Shown piece after piece: positions 17,683 through 19,450 of a DNA stretch of 21,426 bases (the stretch's first letter is position 1; each line of letters starts with the position of its first letter). The position numbers and the translations under genes were made by a program. Source of the DNA: Escherichia coli (GTDB lineage: Bacteria > Pseudomonadota > Gammaproteobacteria > Enterobacterales > Enterobacteriaceae); NCBI RefSeq assembly GCF_003334765.1, contig NZ_QOWT01000047.1, one strand, 5' to 3'. The notes beneath the pieces were generated by a model. The model had not been told where the DNA came from and searched no databases. It saw only the letters and a list, made by a program, of their open reading frames with translations.

Positions 17683-18636
17683 TTAGAGTCTTTTTCGTAC
17701 AGATGAACGGGGGATCTCTGGCTTCATTTCTTTTAACAGGTCTTTTTTCTCTCTTGCTGCGATATAAGAAAAAATCTTATCGGAGTCAGAACGCTGTCTG
17801 AGTATATCGTCGTCCATTCGGATACCATTTCGAATGAACCATTTCACACTTTCTATGCCGGTGTAGATACCAATATGTTTATCATGATAACAATTATAAA
17901 ACTGAACATGACTGATATCGGTATATTTTTTCAGTGAGGTAAAGAAGTACTTCATGTTTTTGACATATAATGCGAAGGAACAGTGTTCAGCGATAAGGAT
18001 ATTACGCCCTTTTTCATGAAGCAAAGCAATTAGAGGCAAAGCCTCAGTTGAAACATGTTTAAATAATACTGGCGTGCTGTCTATTCTATCAACATGGCGT
18101 TTGAGGGCATTAATACTGAAATCATATATCCACCACTCGTTGTCAGTCGGAAGATCCAGCACCGCTTTGCCACCATAATCTCTGTGGTTTATGTCACACC
18201 CTTTATTTACCCAGTAATCAAAGACGTCATGATCGAGGAGGTCATAAAGAAGCGTTTGTCCTTCGTTATCTGTGCTGTGGATATCAATGCCCGCGTTTAT
18301 GAGGAGTTCCGCACAATCTATGGCGTAGCGCTGCCAGTGAAGACAGGACTGGCCTTTATTATTTTTGTGGTGAACGTTAATACCTGACTTTATCAATAGC
18401 CTCACTGCACGTGGGCTTTTTCTGCTAAACAGGGCATTATTACCATAACAATCTGTATGGTTCAGCGCTATGCCTGCTTCAATCATGGCTTTTAAAGCCC
18501 CGATACTGTCGCAACCGAAAAGGGCGTTTTCACCGTGTTCATTAAGTGTGTTAATGTCAATGCCTGCAGCAATGCAATTCTGGACGTCTTTTTTAGTTTT
18601 GCTGTCAAATAAATTATCTTCTGTATAGTTACTCAT
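17683..18636 (-). CDS. ankyrin-repeat protein, 317 aa, C-terminus ..PRSSVRKRL
   Basis: The ATG has AGGAGA 7 nt upstream. Residues about 20-165 contain 4-5 ANK-like units (G-x-x-A/L-L-x...L-I-x-A/S-G-I-x-x-N-x-x-D/N). Examples are HGENALF..MIEAGIALNHTD, YGNNALF..LIKSGINVHHKN, KGQSCLH..LINAGIDIHSTD and EGQTLLY..WVNKGCDINHRD. The C-terminal half is unassigned. Confidence 0.85.
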   Translation of the reverse strand: MSNYTEDNLFDSKTKKDVQNCIAAGIDINTLNEHGENALFGCDSIGALKAMIEAGIALNHTDCYGNNALFSRKSPRAVRLLIKSGINVHHKNNKGQSCLHWQRYAIDCAELLINAGIDIHSTDNEGQTLLYDLLDHDVFDYWVNKGCDINHRDYGGKAVLDLPTDNEWWIYDFSINALKRHVDRIDSTPVLFKHVSTEALPLIALLHEKGRNILIAEHCSFALYVKNMKYFFTSLKKYTDISHVQFYNCYHDKHIGIYTGIESVKWFIRNGIRMDDDILRQRSDSDKIFSYIAAREKKDLLKEMKPEIPRSSVRKRL

Positions 18637-18650
18637 GGGCGTTCTCCTTT

Positions 18651-19091
18651 TTAAGCGGTCGTTTTGTGCCAGGTATTATTGTTGTATTCATATTCTTTTA
18701 TCTTAATGATCTCGTCATAGATCCGTGAAAAAGAAAACCATGAGATCTCTTTCACTTCGCCTTTTTTGTTTGTGTAAATGATATTGCAGCCACGAAAAGA
18801 AAATGACTGATAGAAAGTATCGTGATTCTCCTCTTTAAGAAAACGGGTAAAAGCTTTTATGGTGTCTTTTTTTTCCATGCTATAAGAGAAAAAGGTATGG
18901 ATAGCAAATATGGTCAGAATATTTCTTTCCGTCACCATATGTCTGGAAAAATAATTAAGATAAAAAACATGATCTTCAATGCTATTTTTACAGAATATTG
19001 AAAAGTGAGGGTTATACAGACGGTAGAGATCTGTATTCTTTTTTGTTTTAGATAGGTAACTTGTCAGGGTTGAATAGTTTTGTTTTTTCAT
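18651..19091 (-). CDS. hypothetical protein, 146 aa, upstream partner of the ankyrin gene
   Basis: The ATG has AAGGAGA 7 nt upstream. Only 14 nt separate its stop from the ankyrin gene start. The DNA is very AT-rich and no motif is recognisable. Confidence 0.65.
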   Translation of the reverse strand: MKKQNYSTLTSYLSKTKKNTDLYRLYNPHFSIFCKNSIEDHVFYLNYFSRHMVTERNILTIFAIHTFFSYSMEKKDTIKAFTRFLKEENHDTFYQSFSFRGCNIIYTNKKGEVKEISWFSFSRIYDEIIKIKEYEYNNNTWHKTTA

Positions 19092-19093
19092 TT

Positions 19094-19450
19094 TTATTCT
19101 CCTTTATTATTTTGATGAAATGAATGTATATTATCAAATAAATAAAAATCAAATTTATTTTTAATAATAAAAAATAAGCAAGCGTTTTCTTTTGAATAAA
19201 CTAATTTAATGTGATGTTTTATATAAATAAATTCATAGTTTGCAAAAAGTGCTATTTTTATTTCATGGTTGATTGATGGGCGTTTTTCCCCATTGCTTAG
19301 GGGGAAATATATCCCATTAATATTAAATGTTTGAAGTGAATCGTATTTTAGCAGGGGAATATTATATCTTTTACTTCTGTTTTGATTTTCAACTTTGTGT
19401 GTGAGACACAATATGTGATAGTGTTGTGATAATCGTAAGTATCCTGCCAA
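19094..19450 (-). CDS. doubtful ORF, 118 aa (TTG start, no SD, no internal Met)
   Basis: The frame is open and ends 2 nt before the 146-aa gene start. However, the start is TTG without an RBS, the DNA is extremely AT-rich, and the 5-prime end overlaps the candidate nick site. It may instead be non-coding oriT or leader DNA. Confidence 0.3.
   Translation of the reverse strand: MAGYLRLSQHYHILCLTHKVENQNRSKRYNIPLLKYDSLQTFNINGIYFPLSNGEKRPSINHEIKIALFANYEFIYIKHHIKLVYSKENACLFFIIKNKFDFYLFDNIHSFHQNNKGE
19395..19448 (+). other. candidate oriT core: hairpin, two TGTGATA direct repeats, and the MOBP-type nick motif TATCCTG|CC
   Basis: The elements are TTGTGT-gtgag-ACACAA (19395-19411), TGTGATA at 19414-19420 and 19425-19431 (11-bp spacing), and TATCCTGCC at 19440-19448. 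The nick motif fits the MOBP consensus YATCCTG|Y. It is identical over 10 nt to the complement of the T-DNA border core (TGGCAGGATA), and RP4 has TATCCTGCCC. The predicted nick lies between 19446 and 19447. Confidence 0.4.

What the first reader, a model, noticed from the sequence alone, without database searches (positions are those of the whole stretch)
17683..19450. Ankyrin-repeat operon inserted between the predicted oriT and the mob genes: candidate novel conjugation-linked or defence/anti-defence system
A 146-aa unknown protein and a 317-aa ankyrin-repeat protein have strong SDs and only a 14-nt gap between them. A doubtful 118-aa ORF may precede them. They lie on the same strand as mobC-relaxase, downstream of a promoter candidate in the oriT region. 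They would thus be co-expressed with the transfer genes. Ankyrin repeats are uncommon in E. coli and are classically found in T4SS-delivered effectors. The ankyrin protein has an unassigned 150-aa C-terminal domain and the basic RKRL tail. I recognise no described system with this gene pair. Possible roles include a protein delivered with the DNA to neutralise recipient defences, a fertility-inhibition or exclusion factor acting on the helper plasmid, or a phage-defence pair carried as cargo.
Basis: inference. Interest (0 to 1): 0.65.

Follow-up and report, generated by a model that had tools for sequence, protein, structure and literature searches.

The report
Conserved ankyrin operon beside mobilisation genes
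A real, conserved two-gene operon (a small basic protein plus an ankyrin-repeat protein with a new C-terminal domain) belongs to the backbone of a chromosomal mobilisable island of enteric bacteria, and it probably lies on the side of the transfer origin that enters a new host first, which makes it a candidate establishment or anti-defence module of unknown mechanism.

Summary
The 146-aa and 317-aa genes are real. They have AAGGAG ribosome-binding sites, a 14-nt gap and dN/dS of 0.09-0.31. The 118-aa ORF is not a gene. The element is not a plasmid (0 PLSDB hits; 66 of 5,426 E. coli chromosomes) but a chromosomal mobilisable island. The pair is not an insertion. It keeps the order small gene, Ank, mobC, relaxase in 16/16 genome loci and in 68/73 metagenome loci, down to about 40% identity. 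The shared backbone ends 172 bp upstream of the small gene, where variable cargo begins. A structurally conserved hairpin plus T-run and a separate conserved promoter split the pair from mobC-relaxase, so obligatory co-expression is unlikely. The upstream TATCCTGC motif is not conserved. The Ank-mobC spacer instead has oriT-like geometry: a variable inverted repeat, then TATCAG 7-8 nt away. This would put the pair in the leading region. Neither protein matches a characterised family. In unrelated plasmids, homologues of the small protein sit in arrays of ArdC, a toxin-antitoxin pair, an Ank protein and truncated methyltransferases. The Ank tail (...VRKRL) is shared with one other backbone protein. 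The best reading is an establishment or anti-defence operon (about 0.4). The function is untested.

The parts
18651..19091 (-). Gene for a 146-aa basic (pI 9.3) protein, mostly helical with a small three-stranded sheet. It is the first gene of the operon. Its N-terminal ~30 residues are the best conserved part, and the family ends in -[A/V/T]A.
17683..18636 (-). Gene for a 317-aa protein: five ankyrin repeats (about aa 15-165), a family-specific alpha/beta C-terminal domain (about aa 166-300) and a disordered basic tail (aa 301-317, nt 17686-17736, ...KPEIPRSSVRKRL).
   Evidence: The C-terminal domain profile finds only about 30 representatives among 1.84 billion, all from the same family, and has no Pfam or PDB match.
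19092..19263 (-). Conserved AT-rich 172-bp leader of the operon, with a promoter-like TTGATA-17-CAAAAT at 19137-19109 and the SD. Position 19263 is the sharp junction between backbone and cargo.
   Evidence: There is no ssDNA-promoter-like fold (z = -0.02).
17580..17608 (.). 13-bp inverted repeat or hairpin followed by a T-run on the gene strand. It is read as the intrinsic terminator of the operon and as a candidate oriT inverted repeat.
   Evidence: It is structurally conserved, with different stem sequences, in at least 6 spacer types.
17617..17623 (+). ATATCAG, a candidate nick-region motif 8 nt 3' of the inverted repeat on the top strand, on the Ank side.
   Evidence: [A/T]TAT[C/T]AG occurs at offset 7-8 in 6/6 Ank-containing spacer types whose inverted repeats differ. 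The probability per shuffled flank is 0.015, but the sequences are related.
17503..17541 (-). Almost invariant block, CTTGACTTATT...GTTATCTGTAGTAAT (TTGACT at 17534-17539). It is the presumed promoter of the mobC-relaxase operon.
17074..17481 (-). Gene for a 135-aa MobC/NikA-like relaxosome accessory protein. It is a neighbour, not part of the operon.
   Evidence: (weak NikA-like match, E = 0.042).
15842..17077 (-). Gene for a 411-aa MobA/VirD2-type relaxase, overlapping mobC by 4 nt.
   Evidence: (PF03432, 1.6e-22).
14031..14456 (+). Gene for a 141-aa backbone protein of unknown function that shares the last ~25-28 residues with the Ank protein (...EKK...P...VRKRL).
19094..19450 (-). The 118-aa TTG ORF. 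It is judged not to be a gene.
   Evidence: It is not annotated by PGAP, it has no family hits, and it is interrupted by the homology boundary at 19263.

Best explanation
The two genes form an autonomous bicistronic operon in the conserved backbone of a chromosomal integrative mobilisable element (IME) family of Enterobacteriaceae. The operon sits at the junction between backbone and variable cargo, immediately upstream of mobC-relaxase. I propose it is a leading-region establishment or anti-defence module. In this model, oriT lies in the 200-bp Ank-mobC spacer and the top strand is the one nicked and transferred. The Ank gene and then the small gene are therefore the first DNA to enter a recipient, and they are oriented so that the transferred strand is their template. 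The Ank protein uses its repeat groove and its family-specific C-terminal domain to bind and neutralise or redirect a protein of the new host (or of the helper). The small basic protein acts with it as partner or regulator. The basic ...VRKRL tail, shared with one other backbone protein, is a common handling signal, either for translocation or for proteolysis. Shown: the genes are real, conserved and under purifying selection; they are backbone, not cargo; they have a terminator-like hairpin and a separate mob promoter block; the spacer has an oriT-like inverted repeat plus a conserved motif; both proteins belong to novel, narrow families; the small-protein family recurs next to Ank proteins in ArdC/TA/methyltransferase-like arrays on plasmids; the tail is shared. 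Inferred: the position and strand of nic, early expression in recipients, the anti-defence activity, the target, and the role of the tail.
For: Conserved unit. The order small gene, Ank, mobC, relaxase holds in 16/16 genome loci from more than 10 genera. Ank lies directly downstream of the small gene in 68/73 metagenome loci, with mobC and relaxase following in 64 of them, down to about 40% identity. dN/dS is 0.09-0.31.

Backbone edge. Homology ends 172 bp upstream of the ATG in 11/12 relatives, and different cargo lies beyond it.

Own transcription unit. A hairpin plus T-run (dG -16.3 kcal/mol, z = -3.4) is kept in at least 6 spacer types with different stems, and it is followed by an invariant TTGACT block.

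oriT-like geometry. A variable inverted repeat is followed at 7-8 nt by [A/T]TAT[C/T]AG on the top strand in 6/6 Ank-containing spacer types. The pair then points toward oriT, as leading-region genes do (PMC11541004).

Guilt by association. Homologues of the small protein (43%) lie on 22-37 kb plasmids in same-strand arrays of LPD7, ArdC-like (ArdcN plus zincin), a RelE/MqsA pair, a 236-aa Ank protein, the small-protein homologue, and two or three truncated N6-methyltransferase-like genes.

Old alleles. dS for the pair is 1.3-2.6 against 0.08-0.19 for mobC in the L007 and L025 comparisons, which shows old alleles maintained by recombination, as expected for conflict genes.

Shared tail. Only Ank-CTD and the 141-aa family carry [KR]3[LMI]-COOH, accounting for all 30 of 864 ORFs with it.
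Against: No nick site has been mapped. The hairpin plus T-run could be only a terminator, and the TATCAG motif could be conserved simply by shared descent. No Frpo-like ssDNA promoter fold lies upstream of the operon (z = -0.02). Neither protein resembles any known anti-defence protein. Within the IME itself, the neighbours are mob genes and defence cargo, not anti-defence genes. The pair is not obligate. Five loci keep the small gene without Ank, Ank-CTD paralogues occur alone or in tandem without the small gene, and alleles of the two genes recombine independently. The C-terminal domain has no obvious catalytic residues; only C219, K265, I268 and Y291 are invariant.
Confidence: 0.4

Rival explanations
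1. Donor-side transfer accessory or helper-interference module. The small protein and the Ank protein act in the donor, for example as adaptors linking the IME relaxosome to a helper plasmid's coupling protein, as regulators of mob expression, or as fertility inhibitors of the helper. The basic C-terminal tail would be a recognition signal for the coupling protein.
For: Synteny with mobC-relaxase is strict in all IME-type loci. The Ank-less variant still keeps the small gene next to mobC. The same tail occurs on two backbone proteins. Conjugative T4SSs do translocate accessory proteins in a way that depends on the relaxosome and coupling protein (PMC8406263).
Against: A terminator and a separate promoter split the pair from mob. 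Homologues of the small protein live on plasmids that have no relaxase and are typed non-mobilisable. Alleles of the pair are far older than the adjacent mob alleles, so the pair does not co-evolve with the relaxosome.
Confidence: 0.2
2. Defence or exclusion system. The pair protects the host or the island against phages or competing plasmids, with the Ank protein as sensor.
For: It is adjacent to defence cargo: a DUF4928/type II REase remnant and a NACHT/NA-iREase2 STAND NTPase. It shows deep allelic diversity. There is a weak PADLOC hit of the Ank repeats to candidate PDC-M72A (3.1e-8).
Against: The pair is backbone, and the cargo boundary lies 172 bp upstream of it. No effector or enzymatic domain is detectable. 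The PADLOC hit covers only ankyrin repeats of a 392-aa model with a different architecture. The plasmid neighbours are counter-defence types such as ArdC.
Confidence: 0.12
3. Addiction or toxin-antitoxin-like module that stabilises the island.
For: It is a tight two-gene operon with a small first gene. The small-protein family ends in -[A/V/T]A, like ClpXP-labile proteins (recalled similarity). It lies at the edge of a mobile element.
Against: There is no toxin or antitoxin domain. Alleles of the two genes are shuffled independently. Each gene exists naturally without the other. In the plasmids, a bona fide RelE/MqsA pair already sits next to it.
Confidence: 0.05
4. Ankyrin effector aimed at eukaryotic cells, with KRKRL acting as a nuclear-localisation-like tail, carried by a gut-bacterial island.
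For: There are weak NCBIfam similarities to the Legionella Dot/Icm effectors AnkY and AnkH (25.5 and 22.4 bits). The tail is basic. Phage ankyrins that modulate eukaryotic immunity are described (mentioned in PMC13064858).
Against: The scores are far below the 600-bit cut-offs and cover repeats only. There is no signal peptide, and no secretion system for eukaryotic targets is encoded in the element. The linkage is to mob genes and to bacterial counter-defence neighbourhoods.
Confidence: 0.03

Closest known systems
Leading-region 'establishment and anti-defence' islands of conjugative plasmids (Samuel et al. 2024, PMC11541004)
   Same: Genes lie next to oriT on the side away from the relaxase and all point the same way, so the transferred strand is the template. 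Typical contents are anti-restriction genes, orphan methyltransferases and toxin-antitoxin pairs. Homologues of the small protein sit in exactly such arrays on plasmids (ArdC-like, RelE/MqsA, methyltransferase-like), and the pair here fits the orientation rule if oriT is in the Ank-mobC spacer.
   Different: The element is a chromosomal IME, not a conjugative plasmid. No Frpo-type ssDNA promoter was found. Neither protein belongs to a known anti-defence family, and ankyrin proteins are not mentioned in that study (0 occurrences). The oriT position is predicted, not known.
ArdC and 'polyvalent protein' counter-defence neighbourhoods (ArdcN, zincin MPTase, LPD domains and methyltransferase modules; recalled from Iyer et al. 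2017)
   Same: In plasmid relatives, the small-protein homologue and an Ank protein are flanked by stand-alone versions of these modules.
   Different: None of these modules is present in the window. The association is one step removed, through a 43%-identical homologue.
Ankyrin-repeat T4SS effectors of Legionella and Coxiella (NCBIfam T4SS_AnkY, T4SS_AnkH)
   Same: Ankyrin repeats, and a possible C-terminal signal.
   Different: The scores are 22-26 bits against 600-bit cut-offs. The similarity covers repeats only, the C-terminal domain is different, and the biology is bacterial mobile-element rather than eukaryotic-host.
PIME family of IncP-dependent integrative mobilisable elements (bioRxiv 10.64898/2026.01.12.698999)
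   Same: A chromosomal IME with integrase, AlpA, a replication module with an oriV, its own relaxase and oriT, and large accessory regions rich in immune systems.
   Different: PIMEs are defined by traJ/traI plus trbJ/trbL and a RepA. This element has a MobC-like protein plus a distant MOBP-like relaxase, DUF6387, and no trb genes. No ankyrin operon is described there (0 occurrences).
PADLOC candidate system PDC-M72 (component A)
   Same: Contains ankyrin repeats (hit at 3.1e-8).
   Different: The match is limited to residues 13-99 against model positions 274-366 of 392. The architecture is different, and no second component matches.

Membership tests
Ankyrin-repeat proteins (Pfam Ank_2/Ank_4/Ank) | Tandem 33-residue helix-turn-helix repeats that score above Pfam gathering thresholds | tested here: met
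Dot/Icm-type ankyrin T4SS effectors (NCBIfam AnkY, AnkH) | Full-length equivalog score of at least 600 bits | tested here: not met
   The scores are 25.5 and 22.4 bits and cover the repeat region only.
Known or candidate anti-phage defence systems (PADLOC-DB v2) | Both components match the models of one system | tested here: not met
   Ank shows only repeat-level hits to PDC-M72A (31 bits) and a chance-level hit to a type IIG model (E = 0.02). The small protein has no hit.
Type II toxin-antitoxin module | A recognisable toxin fold and a DNA-binding antitoxin, kept as a cognate co-evolving pair | tested here: not met
   There are no TA domains. L022 and L023 combine a B-type small gene with an A'-type Ank. 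Each gene occurs without the other.
Leading-region anti-defence island (Samuel et al. 2024) | Located among the first ORFs on the leading side of oriT | tested here: inconclusive
   oriT-like geometry in the Ank-mobC spacer (inverted repeat, 7-8 nt, then TATCAG, in 6/6 spacer types) would place the pair first. No nick site has been mapped, and the hairpin may be only a terminator.
Leading-region anti-defence island (Samuel et al. 2024) | Genes oriented so that the transferred strand is the template | tested here: inconclusive
   This is met if the top strand is nicked as predicted. It depends on the unproven nick position.
Leading-region anti-defence island (Samuel et al. 2024) | A Frpo/ssi-type ssDNA promoter upstream | tested here: not met
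   The top strand 19085-19275 folds no better than shuffles (z = -0.02). There are no Rfam hits apart from a tRNA.
Leading-region anti-defence island (Samuel et al. 2024) | Neighbouring known anti-defence, methyltransferase or TA genes | tested here: inconclusive
   This is met for the plasmid homologues (ArdC-like, RelE/MqsA, N6_Mtase-like) but not inside this IME.
Integrative mobilisable element | Chromosomal, with its own relaxase and accessory protein, integrase present, and no T4SS | tested here: met
   It is found only on chromosomes (66 genomes and 0 plasmids). The relaxase matches PF03432. Integrase and recombinase genes are present and no T4SS genes are seen in the annotated island.
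Integrative mobilisable element | Excision and helper-dependent transfer | not testable with these tools
   This needs experiments. Indirect support comes from near-identical backbones in more than 10 genera.

The most novel reading that the evidence does not exclude
The Ank-CTD protein and the 141-aa backbone protein that carries the same ~25-residue C-terminal module ending in VRKRL are substrates handled through that shared tail. In the most novel version, the helper plasmid's T4SS translocates them into the recipient together with the IME DNA. The Ank protein would then be a new, ankyrin-based class of inhibitor of bacterial immunity, encoded by the first operon to enter the cell.
Probability: 0.15. 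Interest if true: 0.8.

Novelty: new variant of a known kind. Interest (0 to 1): 0.52.

Why it matters
If the prediction holds, a widespread but uncharacterised family of enterobacterial mobilisable islands carries a dedicated first-in operon built from two protein families with no characterised relatives. One of them would be an ankyrin scaffold used against bacterial targets. That would extend the leading-region anti-defence principle from conjugative plasmids to chromosomal islands that ferry defence, resistance and metabolic cargo. It would also add a new protein architecture to the counter-defence repertoire. The shared C-terminal tail offers a directly testable handle on how island proteins are recognised, whether for translocation or for proteolysis. 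Even if the function proves different, the work defines the element's backbone, its cargo-insertion junction and a concrete oriT candidate.

Tried and rejected
1. Plasmid origin: megablast against PLSDB found nothing. The one 'plasmid' hit to the relaxase (OX345050, 3.6 kb, linear) is an assembly fragment of the same island type.
2. ORF118 as a third gene: rejected.
3. Upstream oriT at TATCCTGC 19440: not conserved. The other YATCCTGY matches lie in coding sequence or are not conserved.
4. Homology of the C-terminal domain or the small protein to the truncated methyltransferase-like proteins: hhalign was negative.
7. ssDNA promoter upstream of the operon: none.
8. Similarity of non-coding backbone regions to plasmid DNA, such as a helper oriT: none.
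9. IMG/VR hits are prophage calls that spill over from the adjacent P2-like prophage, not phage contexts.
10. The PIME family is a different element type.
11. Strict co-evolution of the two genes: rejected by the allele matrices.
12. Homology of the 141-aa protein to the C-terminal domain beyond the tail: hhalign aligns only the last 28 columns.
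Full report
OBSERVATION. The minus strand carries ORFs of 317 aa (17683-18636) and 146 aa (18651-19091). A TTG-initiated 118-aa ORF lies upstream (19094-19450). Downstream are a 135-aa ORF (17074-17481) and a 411-aa ORF (15842-17077) that overlaps it by 4 nt. 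The 14-nt gap between the two genes reads AAAGGAGAACGCCC, and a second AAGGAG precedes the 146-aa ATG. Pfam finds ankyrin repeats above threshold in the 317-aa protein, a MobA/VirD2 relaxase domain (1.6e-22) in the 411-aa protein, and only a weak NikA-like match in the 135-aa protein. It finds nothing for the 146-aa or 118-aa ORFs. PGAP annotates the 317-aa and 146-aa genes but never the 118-aa ORF.

CONTEXT: NOT A PLASMID. The 2.3-kb region has no megablast match among 72,556 plasmids. It is present, almost always at 99% identity or more, in 66 of 5,426 complete E. coli genomes, always on the chromosome. The annotated neighbourhoods and the window itself (tRNA at 1569-1641) give this order: tRNA-Ile, ypjC-like pseudogene, recombinase remnant, ypjA/EhaD autotransporter, then DUF6387, an AlpA-like HTH protein, small ORFs, a Rep/O-like HTH protein, the relaxase, the MobC-like gene, Ank and the 146-aa gene. 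Beyond these come DUF4928 restriction-endonuclease remnants, a NACHT/NA-iREase2 STAND NTPase, a RelA/SpoT-like gene, two ParB genes, a recombinase and an integrase, followed by a P2-like prophage. No T4SS genes are present. This is an integrative mobilisable element (IME) that carries defence cargo.

THE PAIR IS BACKBONE, NOT AN INSERTION. Homologues of both proteins are confined to Enterobacteriaceae and show parallel identity tiers. In 16 of 16 genome loci from Escherichia, Enterobacter, Citrobacter, Salmonella, Superficieibacter, Leclercia, Pseudocitrobacter, Phytobacter and others, the gene order is identical. It runs small gene, Ank, mobC, relaxase, 91-aa, 132-aa and 106-aa ORFs, the 141-aa gene on the opposite strand, then the HTH187 gene. 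Of 73 IME-type metagenome loci, 68 have Ank directly after the small gene, and mobC plus relaxase follow in 64 of those, down to tiers of 40-60% identity. DNA homology to relatives stops at window position 19263, which is 172 bp upstream of the small gene's ATG, in 11 of 12 loci. Beyond that point the content differs: an ars operon, restriction-like genes, RelA/SpoT-like genes, PTS/bgl genes or IS elements. The operon is therefore the last backbone module before the cargo-insertion junction, and that junction cuts through the 118-aa ORF.

SELECTION AND ALLELES. dN/dS is 0.09-0.31 for both genes. Against L007 and L025, dS for the pair is 1.3 to saturation, whereas mobC next door has 0.08-0.19. 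The pair therefore consists of old alleles that have recombined into a younger mob backbone. Allele matrices show at least two small-gene groups and at least four Ank groups. L022 and L023 combine a B-type small gene with an A'-type Ank, and L060 and L069 show further shuffling. The two genes are linked but do not form a strictly cognate pair.

TRANSCRIPTION UNITS. About 70 nt after the Ank stop there is a 13-bp hairpin (17608-17580) followed by TTTTTT. Its free energy is -16.3 kcal/mol, with z = -3.4. At least six spacer sequence types have a hairpin plus T-rich tract at the same place with different stem sequences. The Ank-less variant has one too. Downstream of the hairpin lies an almost invariant block, CTTGACTTATT...TTATCTGTAGTAAT, just before mobC. 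The simplest reading is an intrinsic terminator for the pair and a separate promoter for mobC-relaxase. Obligatory co-expression with the transfer genes is therefore unlikely, although read-through is possible.

WHERE IS oriT? The only MOBP-like nick motif upstream of the pair (TATCCTGC, 19440-19447) lies outside the conserved block. It is absent from all 12 relatives examined, including L020, which shares that DNA at 90%. The other matches are in coding sequence or are not conserved. In the Ank-mobC spacer, by contrast, the top strand reads inverted repeat, then 7-8 nt, then [A/T]TAT[C/T]AG toward the Ank side. This holds in all six Ank-containing spacer types, although the inverted-repeat sequences differ. 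The motif is expected in 1.5% of shuffled flanks, but the sequences are related, so this is not a probability. A variable inverted repeat beside a conserved motif about 8 nt away is the classical geometry of RP4 and R1162-type oriTs (recalled knowledge, not tested here). If nic is there, the top strand is transferred, the Ank gene enters first, the small gene enters next, and mobC-relaxase enters last. The transferred strand would then be the template for the pair, which is the orientation rule reported for leading-region genes (PMC11541004). No Frpo-like ssDNA promoter fold was found upstream of the operon (z = -0.02).

RELATIVES ELSEWHERE. Homologues of the small protein at about 43% identity occur on 22-37 kb enterobacterial plasmids typed as non-mobilisable (25 PLSDB records). 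There the small gene heads one to three tightly spaced paralogues of a 254-262-aa protein that keeps only the N-terminal half of the N6_Mtase domain. Some plasmids carry extra copies of the small gene. In many of these plasmids the array reads LPD7-domain protein, ArdC-like protein (ArdcN 3.9e-11 plus zincin MPTase 5.4e-19), RelE/MqsA-type toxin-antitoxin pair, 124-aa ORF, a 236-aa ankyrin-only protein, the small-protein homologue, then the methyltransferase-like genes. Almost all are on one strand. The 236-aa Ank protein occurs in 20 plasmids, including at least 9 of the 15 listed small-protein plasmids. The small-protein family is thus found next to non-orthologous ankyrin proteins in two unrelated element types. 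In the plasmids the surroundings are typical of counter-defence (anti-restriction, methyltransferase-like, toxin-antitoxin; compare PMC11541004). The two genes can also exist apart. Five IME loci have the small gene followed directly by mobC with no Ank. A second Ank-CTD paralogue (~330 aa, 29% identity) sits alone beyond DUF6387 in 12 of 16 IMEs. Tandem 412-aa and 293-aa paralogues occur in another chromosomal context with neither the small gene nor mob genes.

A SHARED C-TERMINAL MODULE. The Ank protein ends ...AAREKKDLLKEMKPEIPRSSVRKRL. The 141-aa backbone protein encoded at 14031-14456 (plus strand) ends ...AQYEKKRIARSLAYTPPGSVVRKRL. These are the only 2 of 50 window ORFs of 60 aa or more that end in [KR]3[LMI]. 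Across 17 loci, all 30 of 864 ORFs with such an end belong to the Ank-CTD family or the 141-aa family. BLASTP gives 2e-4, and hhalign aligns only the last 28 columns. The tail is invariant in the 141-aa family down to 59% identity, and that family is also narrow and uncharacterised. The tail is absent from the 293-aa and 236-aa ankyrin proteins. Two leads from memory, neither tested, are as follows. First, positively charged unstructured C-termini act as T4SS transport signals (Vergunst et al. 2005, cited within PMC8406263). Second, basic-plus-hydrophobic C-termini such as MuA RRKKAI act as ClpX recognition motifs. The small-protein family's -[A/V/T]A end also resembles the ssrA-type LAA class.

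INTERPRETATION. The best-supported reading (about 0.4) is an autonomous establishment or anti-defence operon on the leading side of the IME's oriT. The ankyrin scaffold would bind a protein of the new host or of the helper, and the small protein would act as partner or regulator. The rivals are a donor-side relaxosome, coupling or fertility-inhibition role (0.2), a defence or exclusion system (0.12), an addiction module (0.05) and a eukaryote-directed effector (0.03). The remainder is unknown. No characterised family matches, and four literature searches found no description of this pair. The analogous PIME elements are a different family.

VERDICT. This is a genuinely uncharacterised, conserved module with a concrete and testable hypothesis. 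Its function rests on position and guilt by association only.

Noticed in passing
window 14031-14456 (+) and 17686-17736 (-): Two otherwise unrelated backbone proteins, the 141-aa protein and the Ank protein, share a ~25-28-residue C-terminal module ending in VRKRL. No other ORF family in 17 loci has a [KR]3[LMI] C-terminus. It may be a translocation signal or a degron.
   Followed up: partly
window 13433-13566: Three direct repeats of about 36 nt at 49-nt spacing (…CTGTCAG.A.AAATACGCTTCGCGCA) lie in the 970-bp divergent region next to the Rep/O-like HTH protein (12428-12991). They are probably iterons, that is, the oriV of the excised element.
   Followed up: partly
window 14598-14918 and 14945-15343 (-); 15381-15656 (-): Two small proteins downstream of the relaxase have lipoboxes (LLTGC and LISGC), and the 91-aa protein has a zinc ribbon plus a hydrophobic segment. 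They could be entry-exclusion or T4SS-interacting surface factors of the IME.
   Followed up: no
window 16202-16243 (-): The relaxase contains a (PV)7 dipeptide repeat. Relaxase lengths in relatives range from 411 to 425 aa, which suggests variation in repeat number.
   Followed up: no
window 19673-19945 (-) and 20776-21372 (+): Cargo next to the pair includes a C-terminal remnant of a DUF4928/type II restriction endonuclease (profile positions 202-288 of 306). It also includes the start of a NACHT-type STAND NTPase with an NA-iREase2 N-terminal domain, which runs off the window. In full loci this is followed by a RelA/SpoT-like gene.
   Followed up: partly
window 19440-19447 (+): GTAAGTATCCTGC is a good match to the MOBP nick consensus and is preceded by short palindromes. 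It occurs only in the E. coli version of the cargo and is absent from all relatives. It may be a relic oriT of a former cargo element, or chance.
   Followed up: partly
L017, L117, L123, L124 (plasmids such as pKP2_8, pN17-509, pYZEF2-2C-4): These 22-37 kb 'non-mobilisable' enterobacterial plasmids carry arrays of two or three paralogous truncated N6-methyltransferase-like proteins of 254-262 aa. The proteins keep motif I and lack the catalytic half. Copies of the small-protein homologue are interleaved with them, and the arrays lie next to ArdC-like, LPD7, RelE/MqsA and a 236-aa ankyrin protein. They may be decoys or subunit mimics against type I restriction.
   Followed up: partly
L007 19145-20137 (and 11 other IME loci); L012 425-3251: Ank-CTD paralogues occur alone at the opposite end of the IME backbone, beyond DUF6387. 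They also occur as a tandem 412-aa plus 293-aa pair in an unrelated chromosomal locus next to an SMC-like protein and ABC transporter genes.
   Followed up: partly
L067, L068, L073, L077, L078: These are natural Ank-less variants of the IME. The small gene is followed after 312 nt by mobC-relaxase, with its own hairpin plus T-run but without the TATCAG motif. They could serve as natural 'deletion mutants'.
   Followed up: partly
window 1569-1641 (+), 4550-9259 (+): tRNA-Ile and the 1,569-aa YpjA/EhaD autotransporter flank the IME on the left. From the K-12 map (recalled), the IME occupies the position of the CP4-57 prophage region, with its integrase at the far end beyond the window.
   Followed up: no
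IMG/VR loci L030-L042: Several IMG/VR 'viral' contigs contain the pair only because prophage calls for the adjacent P2-like phage extend into the island and end near mobC. The prophage boundaries in that resource look over-extended here.
   Followed up: no
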